DNA from: Escherichia coli | GTDB lineage: Bacteria > Pseudomonadota > Gammaproteobacteria > Enterobacterales > Enterobacteriaceae | Assembly: GCF_965641715.1 (NCBI RefSeq) | Contig: NZ_OZ282453.1 | DNA: 64,000 nt | Reading direction: 5' to 3' (one strand) | Shown: positions 1,555 to 60,349 of the stretch, one piece after another | Numbering within the stretch: position 1 is the first letter of the stretch | Layout: the number at the start of each line of letters is the position of its first letter | Notes under the pieces: generated by a model | Told to the model about the DNA's origin: nothing | The model's database searches: none | Seen by the model: only the letters and a program-made list of their open reading frames with translations | Position numbers and translations under genes: made by a program

Positions 1555-1705
1555 GCACCGATGCCTGATGCGACGCTTGACGCGTCTTATCAGGCCTACG
1601 TATTTCCTGCAATTTATTGAATTTGCACAAATTTGTAGGCTGGATAAGGCGTTCACGCCGCATCCGGCATCTGGGCTCGATTGCCTGACGCGTCTGTTAT
1701 TTCCC
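1555..1705. repeat. REP/BIME cluster (about three palindromic units) in the convergent dtpD-phr junction
   Basis: Imperfect GC-rich palindromes such as gcctgatgcgacgc...gcgtcttatcaggcctac and ggataaggcgttcacgccgcatccggca, typical of E. coli REP elements. Confidence 0.7.
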
Positions 1706-12850: not shown

Positions 12851-12885
<35 letters not shown>

Positions 12886-20219: not shown

Positions 20220-20410
20220 TGGATTGTTTGCATATTTCTTGCCGGATGCGGCGTGAACGCCTTATCCGGCCTACAAAAGCACGCAAACTCAATATATTGC
20301 AGAGATCATGTAGGCCTGATAAGCGTAGCGCATCAGGCAATTTAGCGTTTGAAACTGTTTGTCTGTTCCTTGCCGGATGCGACGTAAACGCCCCATCCGG
20401 CATAGCGAAA
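20220..20410. repeat. BIME/REP cluster (at least three REP units) between glnS and the chiP promoter
   Basis: gccggatgcggcgtgaacgccttatccggcctac, gtaggcctgataagcgtagcgcatcaggca and gccggatgcgacgtaaacgccccatccggca. Confidence 0.75.
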
Positions 20411-39611: not shown

Positions 39612-39650
39612 TGCGAAACAGCCCCGGTGAAATCCGGGGCTGTTTCAGTT
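39612..39650 (+). terminator. intrinsic terminator of asnB
   Basis: aaacagccccggtgaaatccggggctgtttcagtt. Confidence 0.7.
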
Positions 39651-39986: not shown

Positions 39987-40063
39987 GGCTACGTAGCTCA
40001 GTTGGTTAGAGCACATCACTCATAATGATGGGGTCACAGGTTCGAATCCCGTCGTAGCCACCA
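39987..40063 (+). tRNA. metT: tRNA-Met (elongator, anticodon CAT)
   Basis: ggctacgtagctcagttggttagagc...gtcgtagccacca; cloverleaf with CAT anticodon and encoded CCA. Confidence 0.95.
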
Positions 40064-40071
40064 TCTTTTTT

Positions 40072-40156
40072 GCGGGAGTGGCGAAATTGGTAGACGCACC
40101 AGATTTAGGTTCTGGCGCCGCAAGGTGTGCGAGTTCAAGTCTCGCCTCCCGCACCA
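40072..40156 (+). tRNA. leuW: tRNA-Leu (anticodon TAG), class II with long variable arm
   Basis: gcgggagtggcgaaattggtagacgc...ctcgcctcccgcacca, 85 nt. Confidence 0.93.
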
Positions 40157-40179
40157 TTCACCAGAAAGCGTTGTACGGA

Positions 40180-40254
40180 TGGGGTATCGCCAAGCGGTAA
40201 GGCACCGGTTTTTGATACCGGCATTCCCTGGTTCGAATCCAGGTACCCCAGCCA
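40180..40254 (+). tRNA. glnU: tRNA-Gln (anticodon TTG)
   Basis: tggggtatcgccaagcggtaaggcaccggtttttgataccgg...cccagcca. Confidence 0.93.
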
Positions 40255-40288
40255 TCTTCTTCGAGTAAGTGGTTCACCGCCCGGTTAT

Positions 40289-40363
40289 TGGGGTATCGCC
40301 AAGCGGTAAGGCACCGGTTTTTGATACCGGCATTCCCTGGTTCGAATCCAGGTACCCCAGCCA
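40289..40363 (+). tRNA. glnW: tRNA-Gln (anticodon TTG), identical copy of glnU
   Basis: Identical 75-nt sequence to the glnU copy. Confidence 0.93.
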
Positions 40364-40378
40364 TCGAAGAAACAATCT

Positions 40379-40455
40379 GGCTACGTAGCTCAGTTGGTTA
40401 GAGCACATCACTCATAATGATGGGGTCACAGGTTCGAATCCCGTCGTAGCCACCA
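40379..40455 (+). tRNA. metU: tRNA-Met (elongator, anticodon CAT), identical copy of metT
   Basis: Identical 77-nt sequence to metT. Confidence 0.93.
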
Positions 40456-40501
40456 AATTCTGAGTGTGTCGAATATGTTCGGCAAATTCAAAACCAATTT
40501 G

Positions 40502-40576
40502 TTGGGGTATCGCCAAGCGGTAAGGCACCGGATTCTGATTCCGGCATTCCGAGGTTCGAATCCTCGTACCCCAGCC
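40502..40576 (+). tRNA. glnV: tRNA-Gln (anticodon CTG)
   Basis: tggggtatcgccaagcggtaaggcaccggattctgattccgg...cccagcca. Confidence 0.93.
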
Positions 40577-40614
40577 AATTTATTCAAGACGCTTACCTTG
40601 TAAGTGCACCCAGT

Positions 40615-40689
40615 TGGGGTATCGCCAAGCGGTAAGGCACCGGATTCTGATTCCGGCATTCCGAGGTTCGAATCCTCGTACCCCAGCCA
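40615..40689 (+). tRNA. glnX: tRNA-Gln (anticodon CTG), identical copy of glnV
   Basis: Identical 75-nt sequence to glnV. Confidence 0.93.
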
Positions 40690-46237: not shown

Positions 46238-47776
46238 ATGGCTTTTGCCTCATTAATTGAACGCCAGCGCATTCGCCTGCTGCTGGCGTTATTATTCGGT
46301 GCCTGCGGAACGCTGGCCTTCTCTCCTTACGATGTCTGGCCTGCGGCGATTATTTCGCTGATGGGGCTTCAGGCGCTGACCTTTAATCGCCGTCCACTCC
46401 AGTCTGCCGCTATTGGCTTTTGCTGGGGATTTGGCCTCTTTGGCAGCGGTATTAACTGGGTCTATGTCAGCATCGCGACCTTTGGCGGAATGCCTGGCCC
46501 GGTTAACATCTTCCTGGTGGTACTGCTGGCGGCGTATTTGTCGCTGTATACCGGACTGTTTGCTGGCGTGCTGTCGCGTCTGTGGCCGAAAACCACCTGG
46601 CTGCGCGTGGCGATTGCCGCTCCTGCTCTCTGGCAAGTGACCGAGTTTCTGCGCGGTTGGGTGCTGACTGGCTTCCCGTGGTTACAGTTCGGCTATAGCC
46701 AGATTGATGGCCCGTTAAAAGGGCTGGCACCGCTAATGGGCGTGGAAGCCATTAACTTCCTGCTGATGATGGTTAGCGGCCTGCTGGCACTGGCGTTAGT
46801 CAAACGCAACTGGCGTCCGCTGGTGGTGGCCGTCGTGCTGTTTGCCCTTCCCTTCCCGCTGCGTTACATCCAGTGGTTTACCCCGCAACCGGAGAAAACC
46901 ATTCAGGTTTCGATGGTTCAGGGCGATATTCCGCAATCGCTGAAATGGGACGAAGGCCAGCTTCTTAATACGCTGAAGATTTACTACAACGCAACGGCAC
47001 CGCTGATGGGCAAATCATCGTTGATTATCTGGCCGGAGTCGGCGATAACCGATCTGGAAATTAATCAGCAACCGTTCCTCAAAGCACTGGACGGTGAGTT
47101 GCGTGATAAAGGTAGCTCGCTGGTCACCGGGATTGTCGACGCGCGTCTCAATAAGCAGAACCGCTACGATACCTACAACACCATCATCACGCTGGGTAAA
47201 GGTGCACCGTACAGCTACGAATCAGCCGATCGTTATAACAAAAACCATCTGGTGCCGTTTGGCGAATTTGTCCCGCTGGAGTCGATTCTGCGTCCGTTAG
47301 CACCGTTCTTTGATCTGCCGATGTCGTCGTTCAGCCGTGGGCCATATATCCAGCCGCCGCTGTCGGCAAATGGTATTGAGCTTACTGCGGCTATTTGCTA
47401 CGAGATCATTCTCGGCGAGCAAGTGCGCGATAACTTCCGCCCGGATACCGACTATCTGCTGACTATCTCCAACGATGCGTGGTTTGGTAAGTCTATTGGT
47501 CCATGGCAGCACTTCCAGATGGCGCGAATGCGTGCGCTGGAGCTGGCGCGCCCACTGTTGCGCAGCACCAACAACGGCATTACGGCGGTGATTGGTCCGC
47601 AGGGTGAGATTCAGGCGATGATCCCTCAGTTCACCCGCGAAGTGTTGACCACTAACGTGACGCCGACCACCGGACTCACACCATACGCACGTACCGGCAA
47701 CTGGCCGCTGTGGGTGCTGACGGCACTGTTTGGTTTTGCCGCTGTGCTGATGAGTCTGCGTCAACGACGTAAATAA
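46238..47776 (+). CDS. lnt: apolipoprotein N-acyltransferase (512 aa)
   Basis: N-terminal polytopic membrane domain plus C-terminal nitrilase-like domain with catalytic Cys (AICYE). Confidence 0.95.
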
Positions 47777-47787
47777 TCCCTTCTTAT

Positions 47788-47824
47788 CGTGCCGGAATAC
47801 ATCCCGTATTTCGGCACGCTCACC
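47788..47824 (+). terminator. hairpin terminator downstream of lnt
   Basis: cgtgccggaatacatcccgtatttcggcacg: 13-bp stem with one mismatch. Confidence 0.5.
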
Positions 47825-48172
47825 GGATTTGGCATCAGTGCGTTATCCGGTTAACAAAATTCCCCTATCCAACTTTGGCACATCTATTGCTTTGTTATAC
47901 AAGGCAAAGCTTGAACCAGCATCAGTACAACCCGGTTGCACCACAGCAATTCACCGGTAGCACCAAAAGAGTGCATTTTAAGAATTTTGCTTCGGAATGG
48001 TGCGGCGCACCTCCCAAATATAAACAATAAAACAGCAATATCTTTACATTTAGCCAAACTAAATGTTACCTAACAGGCACAACACTGCACAATAAAGTTG
48101 CAGATGATAACAACACAAACACTCACAACGGGTATCCATGCGTTCTTAACGCAGAAGATAAAGGAGTTGGAT

Positions 48173-49081
48173 ATGCAATTACGTAAACCTGCCACAGCAA
48201 TCCTCGCCCTGGCGCTTTCCGCAGGACTGGCACAGGCAGATGACGCCGCCCCGGCAGCAGGCAGTACGCTGGACAAAATCGCCAAAAACGGTGTGATTGT
48301 CGTCGGTCACCGTGAATCTTCAGTACCTTTCTCTTATTACGACAATCAGCAAAAAGTGGTGGGTTATTCGCAGGATTACTCCAACGCCATTGTTGAAGCA
48401 GTGAAAAAGAAACTCAACAAACCGGACTTGCAGGTGAAACTGATTCCGATCACCTCACAAAACCGTATTCCTCTTCTGCAAAACGGCACTTTCGATTTTG
48501 AATGTGGTTCTACCACCAACAACGTCGAACGCCAAAAACAGGCGGCTTTCTCTGACACTATTTTCGTGGTCGGTACGCGCCTGTTGACCAAAAAGGGCGG
48601 CGATATCAAAGATTTTGCCGACCTGAAAGACAAAGCCGTAGTCGTCACTTCCGGCACTACCTCTGAAGTTTTGCTCAACAAACTGAATGAAGAGCAAAAA
48701 ATGAATATGCGCATCATCAGCGCCAAAGATCACGGTGACTCTTTCCGCACCCTGGAAAGCGGTCGTGCCGTTGCCTTTATGATGGATGATGCCCTGCTGG
48801 CCGGTGAACGTGCGAAAGCGAAGAAACCAGACAACTGGGATATCGTCGGCAAGCCGCAGTCTCAGGAAGCCTACGGTTGCATGTTGCGTAAAGACGATCC
48901 GCAGTTCAAAAAGCTGATGGATGACACTATCGCTCAGGTGCAGACCTCCGGCGAAGCGGAAAAATGGTTTGATAAGTGGTTCAAAAATCCAATTCCGCCG
49001 AAAAACCTGAACATGAATTTCGAACTGTCAGACGAAATGAAAGCACTGTTCAAAGAACCGAATGACAAAGCACTGAACTAA
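48173..49081 (+). CDS. gltI: glutamate/aspartate ABC transporter periplasmic binding protein (302 aa)
   Basis: Starts MQLRKPATAILALALSAGLAQA (signal peptide); the track ORF carries a 25-codon upstream extension. Confidence 0.95.
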   Translation: MQLRKPATAILALALSAGLAQADDAAPAAGSTLDKIAKNGVIVVGHRESSVPFSYYDNQQKVVGYSQDYSNAIVEAVKKKLNKPDLQVKLIPITSQNRIPLLQNGTFDFECGSTTNNVERQKQAAFSDTIFVVGTRLLTKKGGDIKDFADLKDKAVVVTSGTTSEVLLNKLNEEQKMNMRIISAKDHGDSFRTLESGRAVAFMMDDALLAGERAKAKKPDNWDIVGKPQSQEAYGCMLRKDDPQFKKLMDDTIAQVQTSGEAEKWFDKWFKNPIPPKNLNMNFELSDEMKALFKEPNDKALN

Positions 49082-49084
49082 TTA

Positions 49085-49240
49085 CAAGAACCAGGGGCGG
49101 AAATTCTAGCCCTCTCGATTGTTACGTAGCACGGACAGACTATACGCCTGATGGTCGTTCCCCATCGGGCCTGAAAACCGCAATACGCTGGGTAACAATC
49201 TTCGAGGGTAGCAGTTAACGCTGCTACCCTCTTTTTTCTG
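49085..49240 (+). ncRNA. sroC: SroC-type sRNA region in the gltI-gltJ spacer (processed from the gltIJKL mRNA)
   Basis: Position equivalent to the known SroC locus; spacer ends in a strong hairpin gagggtagcagttaacgctgctaccctctttttt (about 49204-49236); exact ends not determinable from sequence. Confidence 0.45.
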
Positions 49241-49250
49241 GAGTAGATTT

Positions 49251-49991
49251 ATGTCTATAGACTGGAACTGGGGTATTTTTTTACAACAAGCCCCGTTCGG
49301 CAACACCACCTATCTTGGTTGGATCTGGAGTGGTTTTCAGGTGACGATCGCTTTGTCGATCTGCGCCTGGATTATCGCTTTCCTCGTCGGTTCATTTTTC
49401 GGCATTTTACGTACCGTTCCAAACCGTTTTCTCTCCGGTCTGGGTACGTTGTATGTCGAACTGTTCCGCAACGTGCCGTTGATTGTGCAATTCTTTACCT
49501 GGTATCTGGTGATCCCGGAGCTGTTGCCGGAGAAAATCGGCATGTGGTTTAAGGCCGAGCTGGATCCCAATATTCAGTTTTTCCTTTCATCCATGCTCTG
49601 CCTGGGGCTGTTTACCGCCGCCCGTGTTTGCGAACAGGTACGCGCCGCCATTCAGTCGCTGCCGCGCGGGCAAAAAAATGCCGCGCTGGCGATGGGGCTG
49701 ACGCTGCCGCAGGCTTACCGCTATGTACTGTTGCCTAATGCTTATCGCGTTATCGTCCCGCCGATGACTTCCGAGATGATGAACCTGGTGAAAAACTCCG
49801 CCATCGCCTCGACTATCGGTCTGGTGGATATGGCGGCGCAGGCGGGTAAATTGCTCGATTACTCGGCCCACGCCTGGGAGTCGTTTACCGCCATCACGCT
49901 GGCGTATGTGTTGATTAACGCGGTTATCATGCTGGTGATGACGCTGGTTGAACGTAAAGTTCGCCTGCCCGGCAACATGGGGGGCAAATAA
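49251..49991 (+). CDS. gltJ: glutamate/aspartate ABC transporter permease (246 aa)
   Basis: [24 protein letters not shown]...; ABC permease signature region. Confidence 0.95.
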
Positions 49992-50665
49992 TGTACGAGT
50001 TTGACTGGAGTTCTATTGTCCCTTCCCTGCCGTATCTGCTGGATGGGCTGGTGATCACCCTGAAAATCACCGTCACGGCAGTCGTGATTGGTATTTTGTG
50101 GGGCACCATGCTGGCGGTGATGCGCTTGTCCAGCTTTGCGCCCGTAGCGTGGTTTGCCAAAGCCTACGTTAACGTATTCCGCTCGATTCCTTTAGTTATG
50201 GTTTTGCTGTGGTTTTACCTGATTGTGCCGGGTTTTCTGCAAAACGTGCTGGGATTATCGCCAAAAAATGATATCCGTTTAATTTCGGCGATGGTGGCGT
50301 TTTCGATGTTTGAAGCGGCCTACTATTCAGAGATTATCCGTGCCGGTATTCAAAGTATTTCTCGTGGTCAGTCGAGCGCCGCGCTGGCGTTGGGAATGAC
50401 TCACTTGCAGTCGATGAAACTGATTATTCTGCCGCAGGCGTTCCGCGCGATGGTGCCGCTGCTGCTCACTCAGGGCATCGTACTGTTCCAGGATACCTCG
50501 CTGGTGTATGTGTTATCTCTGGCCGATTTCTTCCGTACCGCCTCAACCATTGGTGAGCGTGATGGTACGCAGGTTGAGATGATCCTGTTTGCCGGATTTG
50601 TTTATTTCGTTATTAGCCTTAGCGCGTCGTTGTTGGTCAGCTACTTGAAAAGAAGGACAGCATAA
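49991..50665 (+). CDS. gltK: glutamate/aspartate ABC transporter permease (224 aa)
   Basis: Overlaps the gltJ stop by 1 nt; ABC permease. Confidence 0.95.
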
Positions 50666-51390
50666 TGATTACCCTGAAAAATGTTTCAAAATGGTATGGT
50701 CACTTTCAGGTGCTGACCGACTGCTCAACCGAAGTGAAAAAAGGCGAAGTAGTGGTGGTTTGCGGCCCGTCTGGTTCCGGCAAATCAACGCTGATTAAAA
50801 CCGTCAACGGCCTCGAACCTGTGCAGCAAGGTGAAATCACCGTCGATGGTATCGTGGTTAACGACAAGAAAACCGATCTGGCAAAGCTGCGTTCTCGCGT
50901 CGGGATGGTATTCCAGCATTTCGAGCTGTTCCCTCATCTGTCGATTATCGAAAACCTGACCCTGGCGCAGGTGAAAGTGCTTAAACGCGATAAAGCGCCG
51001 GCTCGTGAAAAAGCATTGAAATTGCTGGAGCGCGTGGGACTTTCCGCACATGCCAATAAATTTCCGGCGCAGCTTTCCGGCGGCCAGCAGCAGCGTGTGG
51101 CAATTGCTCGCGCATTGTGTATGGATCCTATTGCGATGCTGTTCGACGAACCCACATCGGCACTAGACCCGGAGATGATCAACGAAGTACTGGACGTGAT
51201 GGTGGAACTGGCGAACGAGGGGATGACCATGATGGTGGTGACCCACGAAATGGGCTTTGCCCGTAAAGTGGCGAATCGGGTGATCTTTATGGATGAGGGT
51301 AAAATTGTCGAAGACTCGCCGAAAGACGCTTTCTTCGATGATCCGAAATCGGACCGCGCAAAAGACTTCCTCGCGAAAATCCTGCATTAA
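50665..51390 (+). CDS. gltL: glutamate/aspartate ABC transporter ATP-binding protein (241 aa)
   Basis: Walker [13 protein letters not shown] signature LSGGQQQR, Walker [12 protein letters not shown]. Confidence 0.96.
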
Positions 51391-51394
51391 TCAC

Positions 51395-51425
51395 TCTGGC
51401 GCGCATACCCAATTGCGCGCCATCT
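51395..51425 (+). terminator. hairpin terminator downstream of gltL
   Basis: ctggcgcgcatacccaattgcgcgccatc. Confidence 0.5.
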
Positions 51426-51507
51426 CACGCTTTATCGTTTCGCCCCTCGTATCTGTTACATCCTGGCGTTACCCTTGTCGCAAAGAAGCACACAACAAGG
51501 AGCAACA

Positions 51508-52443
51508 ATGGCACTGCCAATTCTGTTAGATTGCGACCCAGGTCATGATGACGCTATCGCAATAGTTCTCGCCCTCGCCTCACCAGAGCTTGATGTCAAA
51601 GCAATTACGTCTTCCGCCGGAAACCAGACACCAGAAAAAACCTTACGCAATGTTCTGCGTATGCTGACCTTGCTTAATCGCACCGATATTCCGGTGGCAG
51701 GCGGCGCGGTAAAACCGTTAATGCGTGAGTTGATTATCGCGGACAATGTGCACGGCGAAAGCGGTCTCGACGGCCCGGCATTACCGGAACCGACGTTTGC
51801 ACCGCAAAAGTGTACGGCGGTGGAGCTGATGGCGAAAACGCTACGTGAAAGTGCGGAACCTGTCACCATTGTTTCTACCGGACCGCAAACTAACGTTGCT
51901 TTGCTGCTCAATAGCCATCCGGAACTGCATAGCAAAATTGCCCGTATCGTGATTATGGGCGGCGCAATGGGGCTGGGTAACTGGACGCCTGCGGCTGAAT
52001 TTAATATTTACGTTGACCCGGAAGCGGCAGAAATTGTATTCCAGTCAGGGATCCCGGTGGTGATGGCCGGTCTGGATGTTACTCACAAAGCACAAATTCA
52101 CGGTGAGGACACCGAGCGTTTCCGCGCGATTGGCAACCCTGTTTCAACCATTGTTGCCGAACTGCTGGATTTCTTCCTCGAATATCATAAAGACGAAAAA
52201 TGGGGCTTTGTCGGCGCACCGCTGCATGACCCATGCACCATCGCCTGGCTGTTGAAACCCGAGTTGTTTACCACTGTTGAGCGCTGGGTTGGCGTGGAAA
52301 CACAGGGGAAATATACCCAGGGGATGACGGTTGTTGATTATTATTATCTGACTGGCAATAAACCGAATGCCACTGTAATGGTCGATGTTGATCGTCAGGG
52401 CTTTGTTGATTTACTGGCTGATCGTCTGAAATTTTACGCTTAA
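51508..52443 (+). CDS. rihA: pyrimidine-specific ribonucleoside hydrolase RihA (311 aa)
   Basis: Starts [18 protein letters not shown] (DxDxxxDD nucleoside hydrolase motif); the track ORF has an 11-codon extension. Confidence 0.95.
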
Positions 52444-54256: not shown

Positions 54257-55708
54257 TCAACTAAACACCATCGCGATTTTGCCGAGAGCATAACCTATCA
54301 CCAGCACCGTTAAGCTGATTTTGATAATGCTGGTAATGCTCTGTGGTTTTTCATCCTCATCATTTTTTTCTTCATGGTTTTCAGGTATTGGCTCATCGAC
54401 ATCTTCATCCCCCGGCTCGAGTTTCACTTTCGTCAACAGCATCCGGGTGATAATGGCCTCTAATGGATGAGCATCTCCACCTTCCAGCCTTGTATTAAGA
54501 CGGGCCAGCATCTCTTGTTTCGGAAACGCTTCAAGTACTACCTGTTCCGCTACCCGATACAAATCCAGTAACGGTGAATCTTCTTCTGTCTCGCTACCGA
54601 CTCTCGATTTCCACCACGCCCATGCTTTGCGTTTGAAGAATAGCGACTCAATAAACGATTGACCTAACGGCGATAATTTTCCGCTATGTAAAATTTCCGC
54701 CCATAACAGCCGCGTCCGGGCGCTCTCACCAGGAACATATTTCAGCGGTTGACCTTGCGCATCTACCATGCTCCGCGCTTCGATAACCATCACTAATAAC
54801 GCGAAATAATCCGGGCAATGACGCTTGCTCCACTGCAACAACAAATTATCAGCTTGTGTAGATGGGTAACTTCCCCAGTACGCGCAGAGATCGGCAAGCA
54901 GGCTTTCCCCCTCGCCGCAGTACAAACGTTGTGCACACTGGTAATACCGGGCATCTTCGCTTTCTGGTTCTTCCGTTTGCCACTGTTGGGCAACAGGAAT
55001 GAGTTCCGCCATACCTGTTTGCACCGAGCTGTACCAGCGCAACAGTTTGCGATGTAACTTTGCATCATCAGGAATGAACCACGGACCTTCCATCGCCAAA
55101 AACGCAGTGACATAGTCAGGATGGTAATGGCAGCAACGTTCCAGCGCGAAGTAATATTCAACAGTCTGGTTCTGCAACGCAACGGGATATTCCAGAAGGC
55201 CAAGGAAATCGAAACAATCACCAGCCTGAATGGCCTCAAGAAAAGCCTCCCTTTCTTCCTCATCTATTCCTTCGCTGTCATTAAACGAATGCCAGTTCAA
55301 ACGCTCTGCCAGCAAAGAAGCACAATTTAATGAAAGATATCGCGCTTCTATAGCGATTGCACACAGCGGCCAGCGTAATTGATCGACATCCTCCATGTTC
55401 CAGGTATTTAATTGCTGAATAAATTTCTGCCAGGCGGAAGGCTGAAAACGATCACTTTCTGAATCCAGTAATGTCCTGAATGCACGTAGTATTTCATGTT
55501 CAGCGGCGGCATCTTTTTCTTCATCATCTGCTTCCTCGACAGGATTTACCGCCAGTCGCAGCGCCTCTTCATAGGCCTGGCGTAATGCTTTAAACCCCTG
55601 CGGATCGGTTTCGGGATGACATAACGGTAAGCGAGCAAGATAAGCCTGGCGGATAATGTCTATTTGCGTCGTGCTTTCAATTTCGAGGATTTGCCAACAT
55701 GTTTTCAT
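54257..55708 (-). CDS. djlC: J-domain-like co-chaperone of HscC, tail-anchored (483 aa)
   Basis: N-terminal J-like segment ([33 protein letters not shown]); C-terminal hydrophobic helix ([25 protein letters not shown]). Confidence 0.9.
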
Positions 55709-56412
55709 AGGTCGCTCACATCCTTAAGCGTTACCGGGCATTCAGGCTGGACAGTTAATGGCTGCCAGGGAAGCGTGGCATAGAAACGATCGCTTCCCGC
55801 TGCCAGTTCTTCGAACATACGACTCCCGGCGCTATCGTATTTGTACAGGGTTAGCGCCTCGCGTAGCGAAGTGTTGTCTTCGCACTGAGAAGATTGCCAG
55901 TAGAGACGCCCTAGTGAATAGGCAGAAAAATAGTGCATCCAGCTGTGATAGTAATGGTGAGCTCGTACATAGACGCGCGATTGCAGCCATAAACTCTCGT
56001 CTTCCGTCAGCCACTTGTTGAGCACACCGACCCGTGACAGAAACCCCATTCGAACATAATCCCAAGCTTTGATTCCCCCTTCTCCACAGCACATAGCGGT
56101 TTGGGCAACGAATTGGGTATAAATCAACCCTCTCTCCGAGCCACCAGCAATTAATGCTTTCCACTCTTCAGGGGAAGAGCGATGCCATGTCAGATATAAG
56201 CCAGCTAAATCATTAGCATGACCATCATCAGTCATCTGATAAATAGTCTGAATTAAATCATCACGATTATTTATTCCCCAGGATGATGAGAGATCGAATT
56301 CTTTTATCCCGGTATACATTTTTGGCGAGTCATGCGCGGGTTTGCAACCCTGATTAAGTATTTCCATGGGCGCAGAAAGCGCAAAAAGAAGATATTGTTC
56401 TTCCTTATTCAT
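55705..56412 (-). CDS. ybeU: DUF1266 protein (235 aa), paralog of YbeR
   Basis: 4-nt overlap with djlC; high similarity to the 58501-59208 ORF. Confidence 0.88.
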
Positions 56413-56512: not shown

Positions 56513-57067
56513 ATGAATAAAAAATTAATGTATATATTCGCAATTTTTATAGTTGCAGCAATTACCTGTATTAGCCAACCCAAGAAAACGACGTTGCGTG
56601 ATAAAGCCATGGTGAATTATGCCTTTGATTATTTAAGCTCACCGGGCAGTCTTCCATTCACCACGGCAGCCACGGAGCTTTCCGCGATTCATGGTCACTC
56701 AACGTCGCAATATCGCCTTGGAGAATTTTATCTTCATGGTAGCGACGGTAAACCACTGGATTATACACAGGCGAGATACTGGTATGAGCAATCAGCGGAA
56801 CAGGAAAATCCACGCGCGCAAAGTAAACTGGGGTGGATCTACCTCAAAGGTCTGGGGGTCAAACCCGACACCCGTAAAGCAATTCTCTGGTATAAGGAAG
56901 CAGCTGAACAAGGGTATGCTCATGCTCAATATACTTTAGGTTTGATCTACAGAAATGGCTCAGGTATTAATGTTAACCATTATGAATCTCAAAAATGGTT
57001 AAAACTGGCCGCCAAACAACATTACAAAAATGCGGAAAGATTACTTGCCGGGCTTCCCGCACATTAA
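56513..57067 (+). CDS. ybeT: Sel1-repeat protein with N-terminal signal/anchor (184 aa)
   Basis: Repeated Sel1/TPR-like units ([18 protein letters not shown] etc.). Confidence 0.88.
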
Positions 57068-57076
57068 CGTCGACTG

Positions 57077-58504
57077 TCACCCGAACAGATGGAGTATTTT
57101 CCCTATCAAACCAGCAAAGATAAAAATATAGAAAATAATTTTAATGATGCCCAGACAGCCTGGCCCACCATCGTCAACGGGCATTGGCTGCGGTTGCGGC
57201 TCCGGTTCAACAGTTTGCTTCTCGGTAAAATTCGCCGCCTGAATTAATAATCGACGAATAATTAATGCTTCCAGTGGACAACGATCTTCTGCATCAAGAC
57301 GGCTTACAATCGGCATTAATGATTCTTCTGTAGGTTGGCTGGCCTGCACTAATTGTTTGGCAACTAGATATAATGGCCATAAGGTATGTTCTGTATCACG
57401 CTTGAGTGAGATCCGCGGCTTACGTCCTTTGTGCAAAACCATCTCGACCAGTGAACGCCCCAGAGCAGAGAGTTTTTCATCGCTGAGTATTTCGTATAAA
57501 TGAAAACGCGTACGGGCGCTGTCGCCGGGGATATAAAGTAGCGGTTTTCCCTGATCGTTAACCAGTTCGCGAGCTTCAATCATCATCACCACTAATGGGT
57601 AATAATCGACTCGATGCTGACGGCACCATTGCAACATTAAAGCATCCGCCTGAGTGGAGGGATACTCGTGCCAGTAGTCACAAAGTTCTGCCAGCAGGCT
57701 TTCGCCTTCTCCACAATAGACGCGTTGCGCGTATTCATAATAACGCGCATCTTCATTATCAGGTTCAGCTTCCCGCCACGACCGGGCGTAATCCAGGAGT
57801 TCGGGAATTCCCAGGCGACCTGCGCTATACCAGCGGAGTAAATTTCTGTGCAGTTTTGCATCATCGGGGATAATCACTGCGCGATGTTGCGCTAAATACA
57901 ATGTCAGCCATTCTGGATGCGATGACCAAATCCGAGCGAACATTTGGTAAAAATCGATGGTGTCATTTTGCACGGCAACGGGCAGATGCAGAATGGTCTG
58001 GAAGTTAAAAACATTCCCCTTCGCAATGGCATATAAAAAGGATTCCAGTTCTTCTTCGTCTATTTCCCCGACGTTTTCCTCCTGCAACCACCGCAATCTT
58101 TCTGCTAATAACACCACGCACTCGAAGGATAAATGGGCAGTGTTCATGGCGATTGTGCACAGCGACCAGCGTAATTCATCAATCTCTTCCATCGAGCAAT
58201 AATTTAATTGCTGAATGAATCGCTGCCAGGCGGAGGGCAGAAAACGTTCGCTATCAGAGGCAAGTAACGCACGAAAGGCGAGCAGAATTTCATGTTCTGC
58301 TACCTCATATTCTTCTGGTTGCCAAACAGATTTAGCAGGCGACTGCGCAATCCGTAGCGCCTCCTCATACGCCTGACGAAGTTGTTTAAAACCCTGCGGA
58401 TCGGTTTCTGGATGAAAGGACGGTAACAGCGCCAGATAAGCGCGGCGGATAATATCGACGTCAGTCGTTTCCTCTATGTTGAGGATCTTCCAGCAATTTT
58501 TCAT
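57077..58504 (-). CDS. djlB: J-domain-like co-chaperone of HscC, tail-anchored (475 aa), paralog of DjlC
   Basis: N-terminus [50 protein letters not shown]; C-terminal hydrophobic tail. Confidence 0.9.
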
Positions 58505-59208
58505 AGGTCGCTCATATCCTTAAGCGTTTCCGGGCATGTGGGGTAGTCAGCCAGTGGTTGCCAGGGTAAGGTCGCGTAATATGCATCGTCACTGGCAAAT
58601 AATTGATAAAACATATCATTGCCGGAATCGTCGTATTCTTTACGCGCTAAGAATTCACGTAATAAAGGCAGATTATCATCTTCGGGAGACTGCCAATATT
58701 GCCGACCAAAGGTATAACCGGCAAAGTATTGCCGCCAGTTACTATAATAACGTAGAGCCCGTAGATGAATACGCGACTGGATCCATAGACTTTCTTCTTC
58801 ACTCAACCAGTTATTAAGTACGCCCATTCGACTTAAAAAACCCATCCGGACATAATCCCATGCTTTAATTCCTCCCTCACCACAGCATTCGGCTGTGCTG
58901 GCGACAAATTGCGCATAAGCCTGACCTTGCTCATTTAATTCAGCAAGATAGTCACGCCATTCACATGGAGAATAACGAAACCAGCGGTGATAAAACCCTG
59001 CCAACCGCGCGGCATGACCGTTATCGATCATTCGGTGAATTGTGCGCAGCAGGTCATCACGGTCATCAATTCCCCAGGAGGAAGAAAGGTCAAAAAAGCG
59101 TGTACCTAAATACATTTTGGGTGATGAATGCGAAGGTAAACAGCATTCATTGCGTATTTCCATCGGAGTGGAAAGTGCAAACAATATTTTTTTCGACTCC
59201 ATGTCCAT
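58501..59208 (-). CDS. ybeR: DUF1266 protein (235 aa), paralog of YbeU
   Basis: 4-nt overlap with djlB. Confidence 0.88.
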
Positions 59209-59365
59209 ATAATTTATCCTTAAACATTCATTTAATGAATGTAAACTACATTACGAGGCTCATTTATTTATACTTTTCTGACACAACATAATACGCATAA
59301 AATAAGACTTACGCAAAAACGGAACACATAAAAATATAATATGTTTTATCTGCAACCATAAGGAA

Positions 59366-60349
59366 ATGATAATGATTTTTACGTCAAGTTGCTGCGATAA
59401 TTTGTCAATAGATGAGATTATCGAACGTGCTGAACAAGGCGATAGTGAGGCTCAATATATTGTTGGGTTTTATTATAATCGCGATAGCGCAATTGACTCT
59501 CCGGACGACGAAAAGGCCTTTTACTGGCTGAAGCTGGCCGCTGAGCAAGGTCATTGTGAAGCACAGTATTCCTTAGGGCAAAAGTATACCGAGGATAAAA
59601 GCCGTCATAAAGATAATGAGCAAGCCATCTTCTGGCTGAAAAAAGCTGCCCTACAAGGCCATACTTTCGCTTCCAACGCCCTTGGCTGGATACTGGATCG
59701 TGGAGAAGACCCCAACTATAAAGAAGCGGTTGCCTGGTATCAGATAGCCGCGGAGAGCGGAATGTCTTATGCGCAAAATAATCTTGGGTGGATGTACAGA
59801 AATGGCAACGGAGTCGCACAAGACTATACGCTGGCATTTTTCTGGTACAAACAAGCTGCATTACAAGGCCATAGTGACGCGCAAAACAATCTGGCCGATC
59901 TTTATGAAGACGGAAAAGGCGTTGCTCAAAACAAGACACTCGCCGCATTCTGGTATTTGAAAAGCGCACAGCAGGGTAATCGGCATGCTCAGTTTCAAAT
60001 TGCATGGGATTATAACGCTGGCGAAGGGGTGGACCAGGACTATAAGCAAGCGATGTACTGGTATCTGAAGGCTGCCGCTCAGGGGAGCGTCGGCGCTTAC
60101 GTCAACATCGGTTATATGTATAAACACGGACAAGGCGTTGAGAAAGATTATCAGGTTGCCTTTGAATGGTTTACGAAAGCCGCTGAATGCAATGACGCCA
60201 CTGCCTGGTATAACCTGGCCATTATGTATCACTACGGAGAAGGAAGACCTGTCGATCTCCGACAGGCTCTCGACCTGTATCGTAAAGTTCAGTCATCCGG
60301 AACCAGAGATGTCAGTCAGGAAATTCGTGAGACTGAAGATTTACTGTAG
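59366..60349 (+). CDS. ybeQ: Sel1-repeat protein (about 325-327 aa; start may be 2 codons downstream)
   Basis: Seven or more Sel1-like repeats (AQYxLGxxYxxGxGVxxD). Confidence 0.85.
   Translation: MIMIFTSSCCDNLSIDEIIERAEQGDSEAQYIVGFYYNRDSAIDSPDDEKAFYWLKLAAEQGHCEAQYSLGQKYTEDKSRHKDNEQAIFWLKKAALQGHTFASNALGWILDRGEDPNYKEAVAWYQIAAESGMSYAQNNLGWMYRNGNGVAQDYTLAFFWYKQAALQGHSDAQNNLADLYEDGKGVAQNKTLAAFWYLKSAQQGNRHAQFQIAWDYNAGEGVDQDYKQAMYWYLKAAAQGSVGAYVNIGYMYKHGQGVEKDYQVAFEWFTKAAECNDATAWYNLAIMYHYGEGRPVDLRQALDLYRKVQSSGTRDVSQEIRETEDLL

What the first reader, a model, noticed from the sequence alone, without database searches (positions are those of the whole stretch)
49082..49250. Structured gltI-gltJ spacer consistent with the SroC sRNA
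The 169-bp spacer inside the gltIJKL operon ends in a strong GC hairpin plus T-run (about 49204-49236) even though the operon continues. This matches the known SroC sRNA, which is processed from this mRNA and acts as a sponge for GcvB.
Basis: partly seen in the sequence, partly recalled or inferred. Interest (0 to 1): 0.35.

Follow-up and report, generated by a model that had tools for sequence, protein, structure and literature searches.

The report
SroC small RNA in glt operon

Summary
Both the observation and the interpretation are confirmed. The gltI-gltJ spacer is exactly 169 bp (49082-49250). It ends in a 12-bp, -21.3 kcal/mol hairpin (49204-49231) followed by TTTTTTCT. This is the strongest terminator-like site on either strand of the 64-kb window. 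Rfam's sroC model (RF00369) matches 49077-49239 (+) over its full length at 170.8 bits, against a threshold of 45. The curated K-12 MG1655 record annotates sroC (b4763) at the same place, and 162 of 163 bases are identical. The one difference (49107 T, K-12 C) turns a G-C pair in stem-loop 1 into a G-U wobble. Both experimentally validated GcvB-pairing sites are present in the published register. BS1 (49133-49140) pairs SroC C60 with GcvB G160. BS2 (49155-49161, an open loop) pairs C84 with G14. They are 14 nt apart. The cognate gcvB is identical to K-12's. Across 62 sequences from about 20 enterobacterial genera, 89% of cells in the fold are paired, against 36-54% for slid controls. The stems carry abundant compensatory changes, and the element always lies between gltI and gltJ. 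The CA-rich GcvB target in the gltI 5' UTR is also present. Processing by RNase E, Hfq binding and sponge activity are taken from the literature and were not tested here. Verdict: already known, low interest.

The parts
48095..48138 (+). [quoted passage not shown] It makes the parental mRNA itself a GcvB target, which gives the feed-forward loop.
   Evidence: Duplex with the GU-rich GcvB region 56-95 is -41.1 kcal/mol. None of 400 random 121-nt windows of the window reaches this (mean -25.1, min -39.8). The role as a GcvB site comes from PMC4474525.
48173..49081 (+). gltI, the periplasmic glutamate/aspartate-binding protein (302 aa) and parental mRNA of SroC.
   Evidence: ORF. Annotated as gltI in the O157:H7 and K-12 records. 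Two substitutions relative to K-12 (N150D, E223D).
49077..49239 (+). SroC sRNA (163 nt as annotated in K-12). The 5' end lies in the last gltI codons, uncertain by about 3 nt because Salmonella numbering is offset by +3. The 3' end is in the terminator U-run.
   Evidence: Rfam RF00369 at 170.8 bits, full length. 162/163 identical to b4763. MFE z = -5.86.
49094..49113 (+). Stem-loop 1 (SroC 18-37). It contains the only difference from K-12: 49107 T instead of C, turning pair G23-C31 into a G23-U31 wobble.
   Evidence: Helix 1 is 85% paired across 62 sequences, and 2 of its pairs show changes on both sides.
49117..49199 (+). Long interrupted outer stem (SroC 41-66 with 95-123) that encloses BS1 and SL2.
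   Evidence: MFE structure. Helix 2 has 13 pairs, 7 of them with compensatory double changes, and is 84% paired.
49133..49140 (+). BS1, GcvB-binding site 1 (GGACAGAC, SroC 57-64), in the internal bulge.
   Evidence: 8 Watson-Crick pairs with GcvB 156-163. SroC C60 pairs with GcvB G160, which is the published C63G/G160C compensatory pair. Local duplex -15.3 kcal/mol. The two positions left free in the search pattern (SroC 61-62, A and G) are invariant in all 62 aligned sequences.
49146..49170 (+). Stem-loop 2 (9-bp stem, 7-nt loop). Its outer arms resemble a REP hairpin.
   Evidence: RNAalifold predicts it independently. It is 97.5% paired, and 6 of 9 pairs show double compensatory changes. REP-like arms.
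49155..49161 (+). BS2, GcvB-binding site 2 (UCGUUCC, SroC 79-85), which forms the SL2 loop.
   Evidence: 7 Watson-Crick pairs with GcvB 13-19. SroC C84 pairs with GcvB G14, which is the published C87G/G14C pair. Every base has an unpaired probability of at least 0.98. It lies 14 nt from BS1, as published.
49204..49239 (+). Leaky Rho-independent terminator: 12-bp hairpin 49204-49231 plus U-run 49232-49239. It forms the SroC 3' end and the likely Hfq-binding tail.
   Evidence: The hairpin core GGGTAGC/GCTACCC and the T-run are invariant in 62 sequences. 'Leaky terminator' comes from PMC4474525.
49241..51390 (+). gltJ ribosome-binding site (GGAG 49241-49244), then gltJ 49251-49991, gltK 49991-50665 and gltL 50665-51390. 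These are expressed only from read-through transcripts.

Best explanation
Window 49077-49239 (+) encodes SroC, a conserved enterobacterial small RNA derived from the 3' end of the gltI mRNA. This is the E. coli O157:H7-type allele. Proposed mechanism, step by step. (1) Transcription from the single glt promoter partly stops at the strong but leaky intrinsic terminator at 49204-49239. That yields a monocistronic gltI transcript, while read-through gives gltIJKL. The terminator is shown in the sequence; its leakiness comes from the literature. (2) RNase E, guided by Hfq and sensing a 5' monophosphate, trims the gltI transcript down to a compact, very stable fragment of about 160 nt starting near 49074-49077 (literature; not testable here). 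(3) Together with Hfq, SroC pairs with the GcvB sRNA through two short sites. BS1 (49133-49140) pairs with GcvB 156-163, and BS2 (49155-49161, the open SL2 loop) pairs with GcvB 13-19. The complementarity and its register are shown here; the functional requirement comes from published compensatory mutations. (4) Pairing exposes GcvB to RNase E, while SroC itself survives and so acts catalytically (literature). (5) The fall in GcvB de-represses amino-acid and peptide transporter mRNAs such as opp and dpp. It also de-represses gltI itself, whose CA-rich GcvB site is present at about 48108-48130, so the circuit is a feed-forward loop. The same terminator also sets the excess of the binding protein GltI over the GltJKL membrane components.
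For: Rfam sroC full-length hit at 170.8 bits against a gathering score of 45. 162/163 identity to the curated K-12 ncRNA sroC b4763 in the same gltI-gltJ position, and the single change keeps its pair as a G-U wobble. The segment is 100% identical to O157:H7 records and is present in 5421 of 5426 complete E. coli genomes. BS1 and BS2 are present 14 nt apart, with C60:G160 and C84:G14 matching the published compensatory pairs. BS2 lies in a fully open loop. gcvB in the matching O157:H7 genome is 100% identical to K-12's (H26). The fold is supported by covariation in 62 sequences from about 20 genera: 89.3% of cells are paired against 36-54% for slid controls, the covariation score is 0.207 against 0.05-0.07, and 0 of 500 shuffles reach the observed values. 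RNAalifold independently finds SL2 and the terminator. Synteny: a GltI C-terminus lies about 50 nt upstream and a GltJ start 107-124 nt downstream of the anchor in almost all loci with enough DNA held. The terminator is the strongest in the window. The gltI 5'-UTR GcvB site is present. Literature: PMC4474525 reports that the E. coli SroC and GcvB homologues are functional. PMC10250213 reports an E. coli GcvB half-life of 3.8 min with SroC and more than 16 min without. PMC5145812 reports by RIL-seq that 70% of GcvB interactions in stationary phase are with SroC.
Against: Nothing here contradicts the explanation. Limits: no expression data exist for this strain, so transcript ends, Hfq binding and GcvB decay are transferred from K-12 and Salmonella. 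SroC-GcvB complementarity is not statistically compelling on its own: there are 4 Watson-Crick stretches of at least 7 nt, shuffles give 1.39 +/- 1.19, and the fraction of shuffles reaching the observed count is 0.043. The argument therefore rests on the exact positional match to the validated sites. The cross-species set was retrieved with a pattern that required BS1 and BS2, so their conservation in that set is partly by construction; the stems, and the two free positions inside BS1, are unbiased. My BS2 local energy (-10.9 kcal/mol) is weaker than the published -16.7, and my BS1 energy (-15.3) is stronger than the published -13.6. The boundaries and parameters differ.
Confidence: 0.96

Rival explanations
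1. The spacer is only a cis-acting intra-operon attenuator and mRNA stabiliser. On this view the terminator and upstream hairpins exist solely to make more GltI than GltJKL, and the RNA fragment is an inert decay by-product.
For: It lies directly after the binding-protein gene of an ABC transporter operon, where such elements are common. The terminator is strong and gltJ's ribosome-binding site follows it. The SL2 arms resemble REP stabiliser hairpins. PMC4474525 itself assigns the stoichiometry role to this terminator.
Against: The single-stranded BS1 and BS2 are invariant while the stems around them vary and co-vary. That pattern is not expected for a pure structural stabiliser. Published compensatory mutations, a chromosomal sroC** mutant and a deletion mutant all show a trans effect on GcvB. 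The cis role is real but is not the only function.
Confidence: 0.03
2. The structured part is a genuine REP (repetitive extragenic palindromic) element copy, as implied by the statement that EcoCyc lists SroC as REP-containing.
For: SL2 (49146-49172, GCCTGATGG...CCATCGGGCCT) fits the loose frame GCC[GT]GATG...ATC.GGCCT, which otherwise matches only true REPs in the window. PMC12306157 cites EcoCyc to this effect.
Against: I wrote the loose pattern after seeing SL2. The interior (TCGTTCC loop, no CG[AG]CG...CG[CT]CTTATC inner stem) is not REP-like. Repeat finding did not group SL2 with the REP families D3 and D6. The MG1655 record has no repeat feature here. The segment is single-copy in E. coli genomes (median 1 place). 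In other genera the stem sequence drifts away from REP while keeping its pairing.
Confidence: 0.02
3. SroC is an independent sRNA gene with its own promoter inside the 3' end of gltI (DapZ/MicL type) and is not a processing product.
For: This class of 3'-UTR sRNA exists. Sequence alone cannot exclude a weak or non-sigma-70 promoter.
Against: No sigma-70-like site was found on the + strand anywhere in 47700-51700. This is weak evidence, because the scan also misses the gltI promoter. The literature reports a 5'-monophosphate end, no transcription start site, and RNase E dependence in vivo and in vitro.
Confidence: 0.01
4. The region encodes a small protein on the opposite strand (67-aa ORF at 49309-49106, minus strand).
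For: A mechanical ORF with a GTG start is listed.
Against: The ORF runs antisense across the gltJ start and the terminator. The cross-genus substitution pattern is paired-stem covariation with indels of non-triplet length, not codon-like conservation. No record annotates it.
Confidence: 0.005

Closest known systems
SroC sRNA (Rfam RF00369; E. coli K-12 b4763; Salmonella SroC of Miyakoshi, Chao and Vogel 2015, PMC4474525)
   Same: Same locus (gltI-gltJ), strand, length (163 nt) and fold. 162/163 bases are identical to K-12. Both GcvB-binding sites are present with the validated C:G pairs, along with the same terminator and the same parental-mRNA GcvB site in the 5' UTR.
   Different: There is one base change (49107 T for C, SroC position 31), which keeps its pair as G-U. 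Compared with Salmonella and most other genera, the Escherichia terminator stem is longer (12 bp against 7-8 bp). In K-12 an IS5 lies upstream of gltI; here it does not.
Other processed 3'-UTR-derived, Hfq-dependent sRNAs (CpxQ, SdhX, NarS, OppZ, MalH; review PMC9438474)
   Same: They are released by RNase E from the 3' end of an mRNA, share the host mRNA's terminator, carry a 5'-P end, and function in the same pathway as the parental gene.
   Different: SroC comes from an operon-internal terminator, not from the end of the operon. Its main target is another sRNA (a sponge that triggers decay), not mRNAs.
Other sRNA sponges (chbBC spacer-ChiX; 3'ETS-leuZ-RyhB/RybB; AgvB-GcvB of EHEC prophages)
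   Same: Each is a transcript fragment that base-pairs with an Hfq-dependent sRNA and lowers its activity.
   Different: SroC uses two short, separated sites, triggers RNase E cleavage of GcvB, and is not itself consumed. AgvB is recalled from my own knowledge and was not examined here.
REP elements
   Same: The outer arms of SL2 have the REP-like ends GCCTGATG...ATCGGGCCT, and the position downstream of a binding-protein gene is typical.
   Different: The interior differs, the segment is single-copy, and it is not grouped with the window's REP families. At most it is REP-derived.

Membership tests
SroC (RF00369) | Sequence-plus-structure match to the family covariance model above the curated gathering score | tested here: met
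   170.8 bits against 45; model positions 1-163 of 163; E = 7e-36; + strand.
SroC (RF00369) | Orthology to the experimentally defined E. coli sroC gene (b4763) | tested here: met
   162/163 identical to the ncRNA feature of NC_000913.3.
SroC (RF00369) | Location between gltI and gltJ on the operon strand, with the 5' end in the last gltI codons | tested here: met
   gltI ends at 49081 and gltJ starts at 49251. The same arrangement is found in loci from about 20 genera.
SroC (RF00369) | Two GcvB-pairing sites (BS1, BS2) 14 nt apart and complementary to GcvB 3' and 5' regions, including the C:G pairs validated by compensatory mutation | tested here: met
   SroC 57-64 pairs with GcvB 156-163 (C60:G160), and SroC 79-85 pairs with GcvB 13-19 (C84:G14). 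Published definition. Cognate gcvB is identical to K-12's.
SroC (RF00369) | Conserved fold (SL1, long stem enclosing SL2, terminator) supported by covariation | tested here: met
   89.3% of cells are paired against 36-54% for slid controls. 16 pairs show double changes. SL2 is 97.5% paired.
SroC (RF00369) | Rho-independent terminator forming the 3' end | tested here: met
   12-bp hairpin at -21.3 kcal/mol plus TTTTTTCT, the strongest such site in the window. Actual termination efficiency was not measured.
SroC (RF00369) | Stable RNA of about 160 nt with a 5' monophosphate produced by RNase E | not testable with these tools
   Literature only: PMC4474525 and PMC10250213.
SroC (RF00369) | Hfq-dependent destabilisation of GcvB | not testable with these tools
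   Literature only. The E. coli homologues are reported as functional. GcvB half-life is 3.8 min with SroC and more than 16 min without. RIL-seq chimeras are reported.
REP element | Match to the REP consensus over the whole palindrome (outer arms plus inner CG-rich stem and TTATC) | tested here: not met
   Only the outer 8+8 nt match; the interior does not. SL2 is not grouped with REP families D3 and D6.
REP element | Many dispersed copies per genome | tested here: not met
   The 251-nt query has a median of 1 place per E. coli genome. megablast would not detect 27-nt similarity, so this only shows that the segment as a whole is unique.

The most novel reading that the evidence does not exclude
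The most novel reading that my evidence does not exclude is that termination here is regulated. Blocks outside the GcvB contact sites were not part of my search pattern, yet they are invariant across about 20 genera. These are CCCUCUCGAUUG (SroC 34-45) and AUCUUCGAGGGUAG (SroC 122-135), the latter spanning the linker and the 5' arm of the terminator. They could form a cis-element, or bind a trans-factor, that tunes termination against read-through in the gltI-gltJ spacer. That would set SroC output, and therefore GcvB levels, in response to a signal. Miyakoshi et al. raised this as an open possibility. The more mundane explanations are Hfq-binding modules, or pairing sites for the other reported SroC partners (MgrR, fliE/flhB). 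A second, smaller idea is that SL2 is a domesticated REP hairpin whose loop evolved into BS2.
Probability: 0.12. Interest if true: 0.45.

Novelty: already known. Interest (0 to 1): 0.08.

Why it matters
As a discovery it does not matter much. SroC was found in 2003 and its mechanism was worked out in 2015, and this window simply contains the O157:H7-type allele. It is useful as an annotation point, because PGAP-annotated E. coli records, including the O157:H7 record identical to this window, list no feature in this spacer. An automated reading would therefore miss a regulator that controls GcvB, which the literature describes as having one of the largest sRNA regulons known in bacteria. The case also shows that the first-stage reader can correctly recognise a known 3'-UTR sRNA from raw sequence.

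Tried and rejected
(1) Global RNAduplex of full-length SroC against GcvB gave an uninformative, nearly end-to-end duplex of -78.8 kcal/mol. I replaced it with exact-complement stretch finding and local duplexes.

(2) Complementarity statistics are only borderline (fraction of shuffles reaching the observed count 0.043 for stretches of at least 7 nt and 0.063 for at least 8 nt), so I do not use them as independent evidence.

(3) A third 8-nt complement (SroC 101-108 with GcvB 189-196) is rejected as chance. The GcvB side is buried in its terminator stem (unpaired probability about 0), and the SroC side is not conserved across genera.

(4) The REP-element reading is rejected as membership and kept only as a possible origin.

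(5) The first synteny table used a gltI start that was off by one (48174), so its GltI identities are meaningless. I redid it with 48173.

(6) RNAalifold on the MAFFT alignment missed SL1 and the long stem, probably because of indel misalignment. It also proposed an invariant 4-bp long-range helix between BS1 (GACA) and the gltJ start (UGUC), alignment columns 70-73 with 194-197. That helix has no covariation and I treat it as chance.

(7) The promoter scan found nothing on the + strand. It also misses the gltI promoter, so this negative result is weak.

(8) The first run of the duplex script failed because a locus file had not yet been written, and one literature query had too many terms.

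(9) I did not use the protein-search, structure-prediction or metagenome tools. Nothing in this finding called for them.

Full report
**Observation**

The window around the finding carries lnt (46238-47776), gltI (48173-49081), gltJ (49251-49991), gltK (49991-50665) and gltL (50665-51390) on the + strand. The gene names come from annotated E. coli records that match the segment.

The consensus scan finds a stem at 49204-49231 with 12 pairs, 7 of them G-C, and a 4-nt loop, followed by TTTTTTCT. This hairpin folds at -21.3 kcal/mol. Among all 127,946 28-nt windows on both strands of the 64 kb, only one other site is as stable. It ranks first among hairpins followed by a T-run.

The full 163-nt element folds at -64.1 kcal/mol, z = -5.86 against dinucleotide shuffles. 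The reverse strand folds less well (z = -4.70) and has no T-run after the hairpin.

**Identity**

A search of all Rfam families over the whole window gives one hit in this region. It is RF00369 (sroC) at 49077-49239 on the + strand, covering model positions 1-163 of 163, at 170.8 bits against a gathering score of 45, E = 7e-36.

The 251-nt segment 49040-49290 is 100% identical to E. coli O157:H7 records and is present in 5421 of 5426 complete E. coli genomes. PGAP-annotated records show no feature in the spacer. The curated K-12 MG1655 record does annotate an ncRNA, sroC (b4763, 686681-686843), between gltI and gltJ. The window is identical to it at 162 of 163 positions.

The single difference is 49107 T against K-12 C, at SroC position 31. 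It converts the G23-C31 pair of stem-loop 1 into a G-U wobble, so the structure is kept.

The most divergent E. coli allele I sampled (strain 98203) differs inside sroC only by an A-to-G change in the SL2 stem. That change also gives a wobble and leaves both GcvB sites intact.

**Mechanistic features**

Miyakoshi, Chao and Vogel (PMC4474525) showed that SroC is cut from the gltI transcript by RNase E in an Hfq-guided, 5'-P-dependent way. Its 3' end comes from a leaky Rho-independent terminator. It pairs with GcvB through two short sites, BS1 and BS2, which lie 14 nt apart in SroC. The compensatory pairs SroC C63G with GcvB G160C, and SroC C87G with GcvB G14C (Salmonella numbering), abolish and then restore regulation.

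I tested these features on the window against the annotated GcvB. GcvB is 100% identical between K-12 and the O157:H7 genome that matches the window.

| Site | SroC positions | Window coordinates | Sequence | GcvB partner | Validated pair |
|---|---|---|---|---|---|
| BS1 | 57-64 | 49133-49140 | GGACAGAC | 156-163 | C60:G160 |
| BS2 | 79-85 | 49155-49161 | UCGUUCC | 13-19 | C84:G14 |

The two sites are 14 nt apart. This is the published arrangement with a constant +3 offset in numbering. BS2 occupies the SL2 loop, with unpaired probability of at least 0.98 at every base. BS1 lies in the internal bulge and is partly paired.

One caveat applies. Complementarity of this length between two RNAs of about 200 nt is only borderline against shuffles (fraction of shuffles reaching the observed count about 0.04-0.06). 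The evidence is therefore the exact coincidence with the validated sites, not the complementarity itself.

The CA-rich GcvB target in the gltI 5' UTR, which closes the feed-forward loop, is also present at about 48108-48130. It pairs with the GU-rich region of GcvB better than any of 400 random windows.

**Conservation and structure**

A DNA-pattern scan of one genome per species, anchored on the single-stranded core, returned 67 loci. They come from Escherichia, Salmonella, Citrobacter, Klebsiella, Raoultella, Enterobacter, Kluyvera, Kosakonia, Phytobacter, Lelliottia, Yokenella and other genera.

Wherever enough DNA was held, a GltI C-terminus (88-99% identity) ends about 50 nt upstream of the anchor, and GltJ (90-100% identity) starts 107-124 nt downstream.

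I aligned 62 distinct sequences and counted pairs for the window-derived fold:

| Measure | Observed structure | Controls |
|---|---|---|
| Cells forming a standard pair | 89.3% | 36-54% (3' partners slid) |
| Covariation score | 0.207 | 0.05-0.07 (slid) |
| Shuffles reaching the observed values | 0 of 500 | |

SL2 has 6 of 9 pairs with compensatory double changes and is 97.5% paired. The long outer stem has 7 of 13 such pairs. RNAalifold independently predicts SL2 and the terminator.

BS1 and BS2 are invariant in this set partly by construction. However, the two positions inside BS1 that the pattern left free are also invariant. Further blocks that were not in the pattern are invariant too: CCCUCUCGAUUG and AUCUUCGAGGGUAG. 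This matches the paper's remark about conserved nucleotides outside the GcvB contacts.

**Rival explanations**

A purely cis role, as a terminator and stabiliser that sets the GltI:GltJKL ratio, is real according to the literature. It cannot be the whole story. The loops are invariant between co-varying stems, and published point mutants keep the terminator yet stabilise GcvB.

One paper states that EcoCyc lists SroC as containing a REP element. SL2 does share the outer arms of REP hairpins. Against that, its interior differs, it is not grouped with the window's REP families, the MG1655 record has no repeat feature there, and I wrote the pattern post hoc. At most this points to a REP-derived origin.

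An internal promoter is not indicated (weak evidence) and is contradicted by the literature. The antisense 67-aa ORF is not supported by the substitution and indel pattern.

**Comparison with what is known, and verdict**

Every sequence-testable defining feature of SroC is met. The biochemical features (5'-P end, RNase E processing, Hfq binding, GcvB decay) rest on experiments in K-12 and Salmonella. These include E. coli data showing a GcvB half-life of 3.8 min with SroC and more than 16 min without it, and RIL-seq chimeras. The review literature adds MgrR sponging and repression of fliE/flhBAE.

The only open thread is whether the invariant non-GcvB blocks regulate termination, which I rate at a probability of about 0.12.

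Noticed in passing
L014:6814-7060, L059:8372-8660; L022, L029, L032, L049, L060, L019 (about 180 nt upstream of the anchor): An ERIC-like repeat (core GTGAATCCCCGGGAGC or GCGAATTCCCGGGAGC, about 125-175 nt) has inserted inside the sroC region in other genera, at two different places. In Yokenella regensburgei and Enterobacteriaceae RIT691 it lies between SL2 and the 3' strand of the outer stem. In some Citrobacter, Phytobacter and Kosakonia genomes it lies between the gltI stop and SL1. SL1, SL2, BS1, BS2 and the terminator are kept in all of them, so these species should make a longer or differently processed SroC.
   Followed up: partly
window 49204-49231, and alignment A2 columns 150-160: The terminator stem is 12 bp in Escherichia because of extra bases (AG-TTAA-CGCT) and is also extended in Kluyvera. 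Most genera have a 7-8 bp stem (GGGTAGC GCT GCTACCC). This explains the poor 3'-end alignment to the Rfam consensus, and it may change how leaky the terminator is.
   Followed up: partly
window 49146-49172: SL2 of SroC has REP-like outer arms (GCCTGATG...ATCGGGCCT). Elsewhere in the window this loose frame matches only true REPs (1563-1597, 12851-12882, 20241-20272, 20312-20338). The GcvB-binding loop BS2 may therefore sit in a REP-derived hairpin.
   Followed up: partly
window 47777-48172, compared with L001:4852-6046: K-12 MG1655 carries IS5D (insH3) between lnt and gltI, just upstream of the glt promoter region. The window, like O157:H7, has no insertion there. glt and SroC expression could therefore differ between K-12 and this strain.
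   Followed up: no
window 1592-1634 (-): There is a full-length Rfam hit to ES036 (CssrF) sRNA at 75.1 bits (gathering score 37.6). It lies inside a cluster of REP copies at 1563-1670, so the 'sRNA' model may be largely REP-adjacent sequence.
   Followed up: no
window 39987-40686 (+) and 39615-39645: Seven tRNA hits form a tight array with internal duplications (repeat families D1 and D7). From my own knowledge this is consistent with the metT-leuW-glnUW-metU-glnVX operon. Anticodons were not checked. Just upstream, at 39616, is the only hairpin in the window as stable as the SroC terminator (-22 kcal/mol, GAAACAGCCCCGG...CCGGGGCTGTTTC).
   Followed up: no
window 55350-56385 and 58146-59181: A diverged direct duplication (71-76% identity, constant spacing of 2796 nt, repeat families D2, D4 and D10) suggests two tandem paralogous genes. 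Further short internal repeats occur at 56903-59880 (D9, D14).
   Followed up: no
window 49177-49184 (SroC 101-108): A third 8-nt perfect complement exists between SroC (ACCGCAAU) and GcvB 189-196. The GcvB side lies in its terminator stem and the SroC side is not conserved across genera, so I judge it to be chance.
   Followed up: yes
E. coli genome collection: The sroC segment occurs in two places on plasmids, and 5 of 5426 complete E. coli genomes have no match. gcvB is likewise missing, or only 80-90% identical, in a few genomes. I did not examine any of these.
   Followed up: no
window 49136-49139 with 49252-49255 (alignment A2 columns 70-73 with 194-197): RNAalifold proposed an invariant 4-bp long-range pairing between GACA inside BS1 and UGUC at the gltJ start codon. 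It could form only in read-through transcripts. There is no covariation, so it is probably chance.
   Followed up: no
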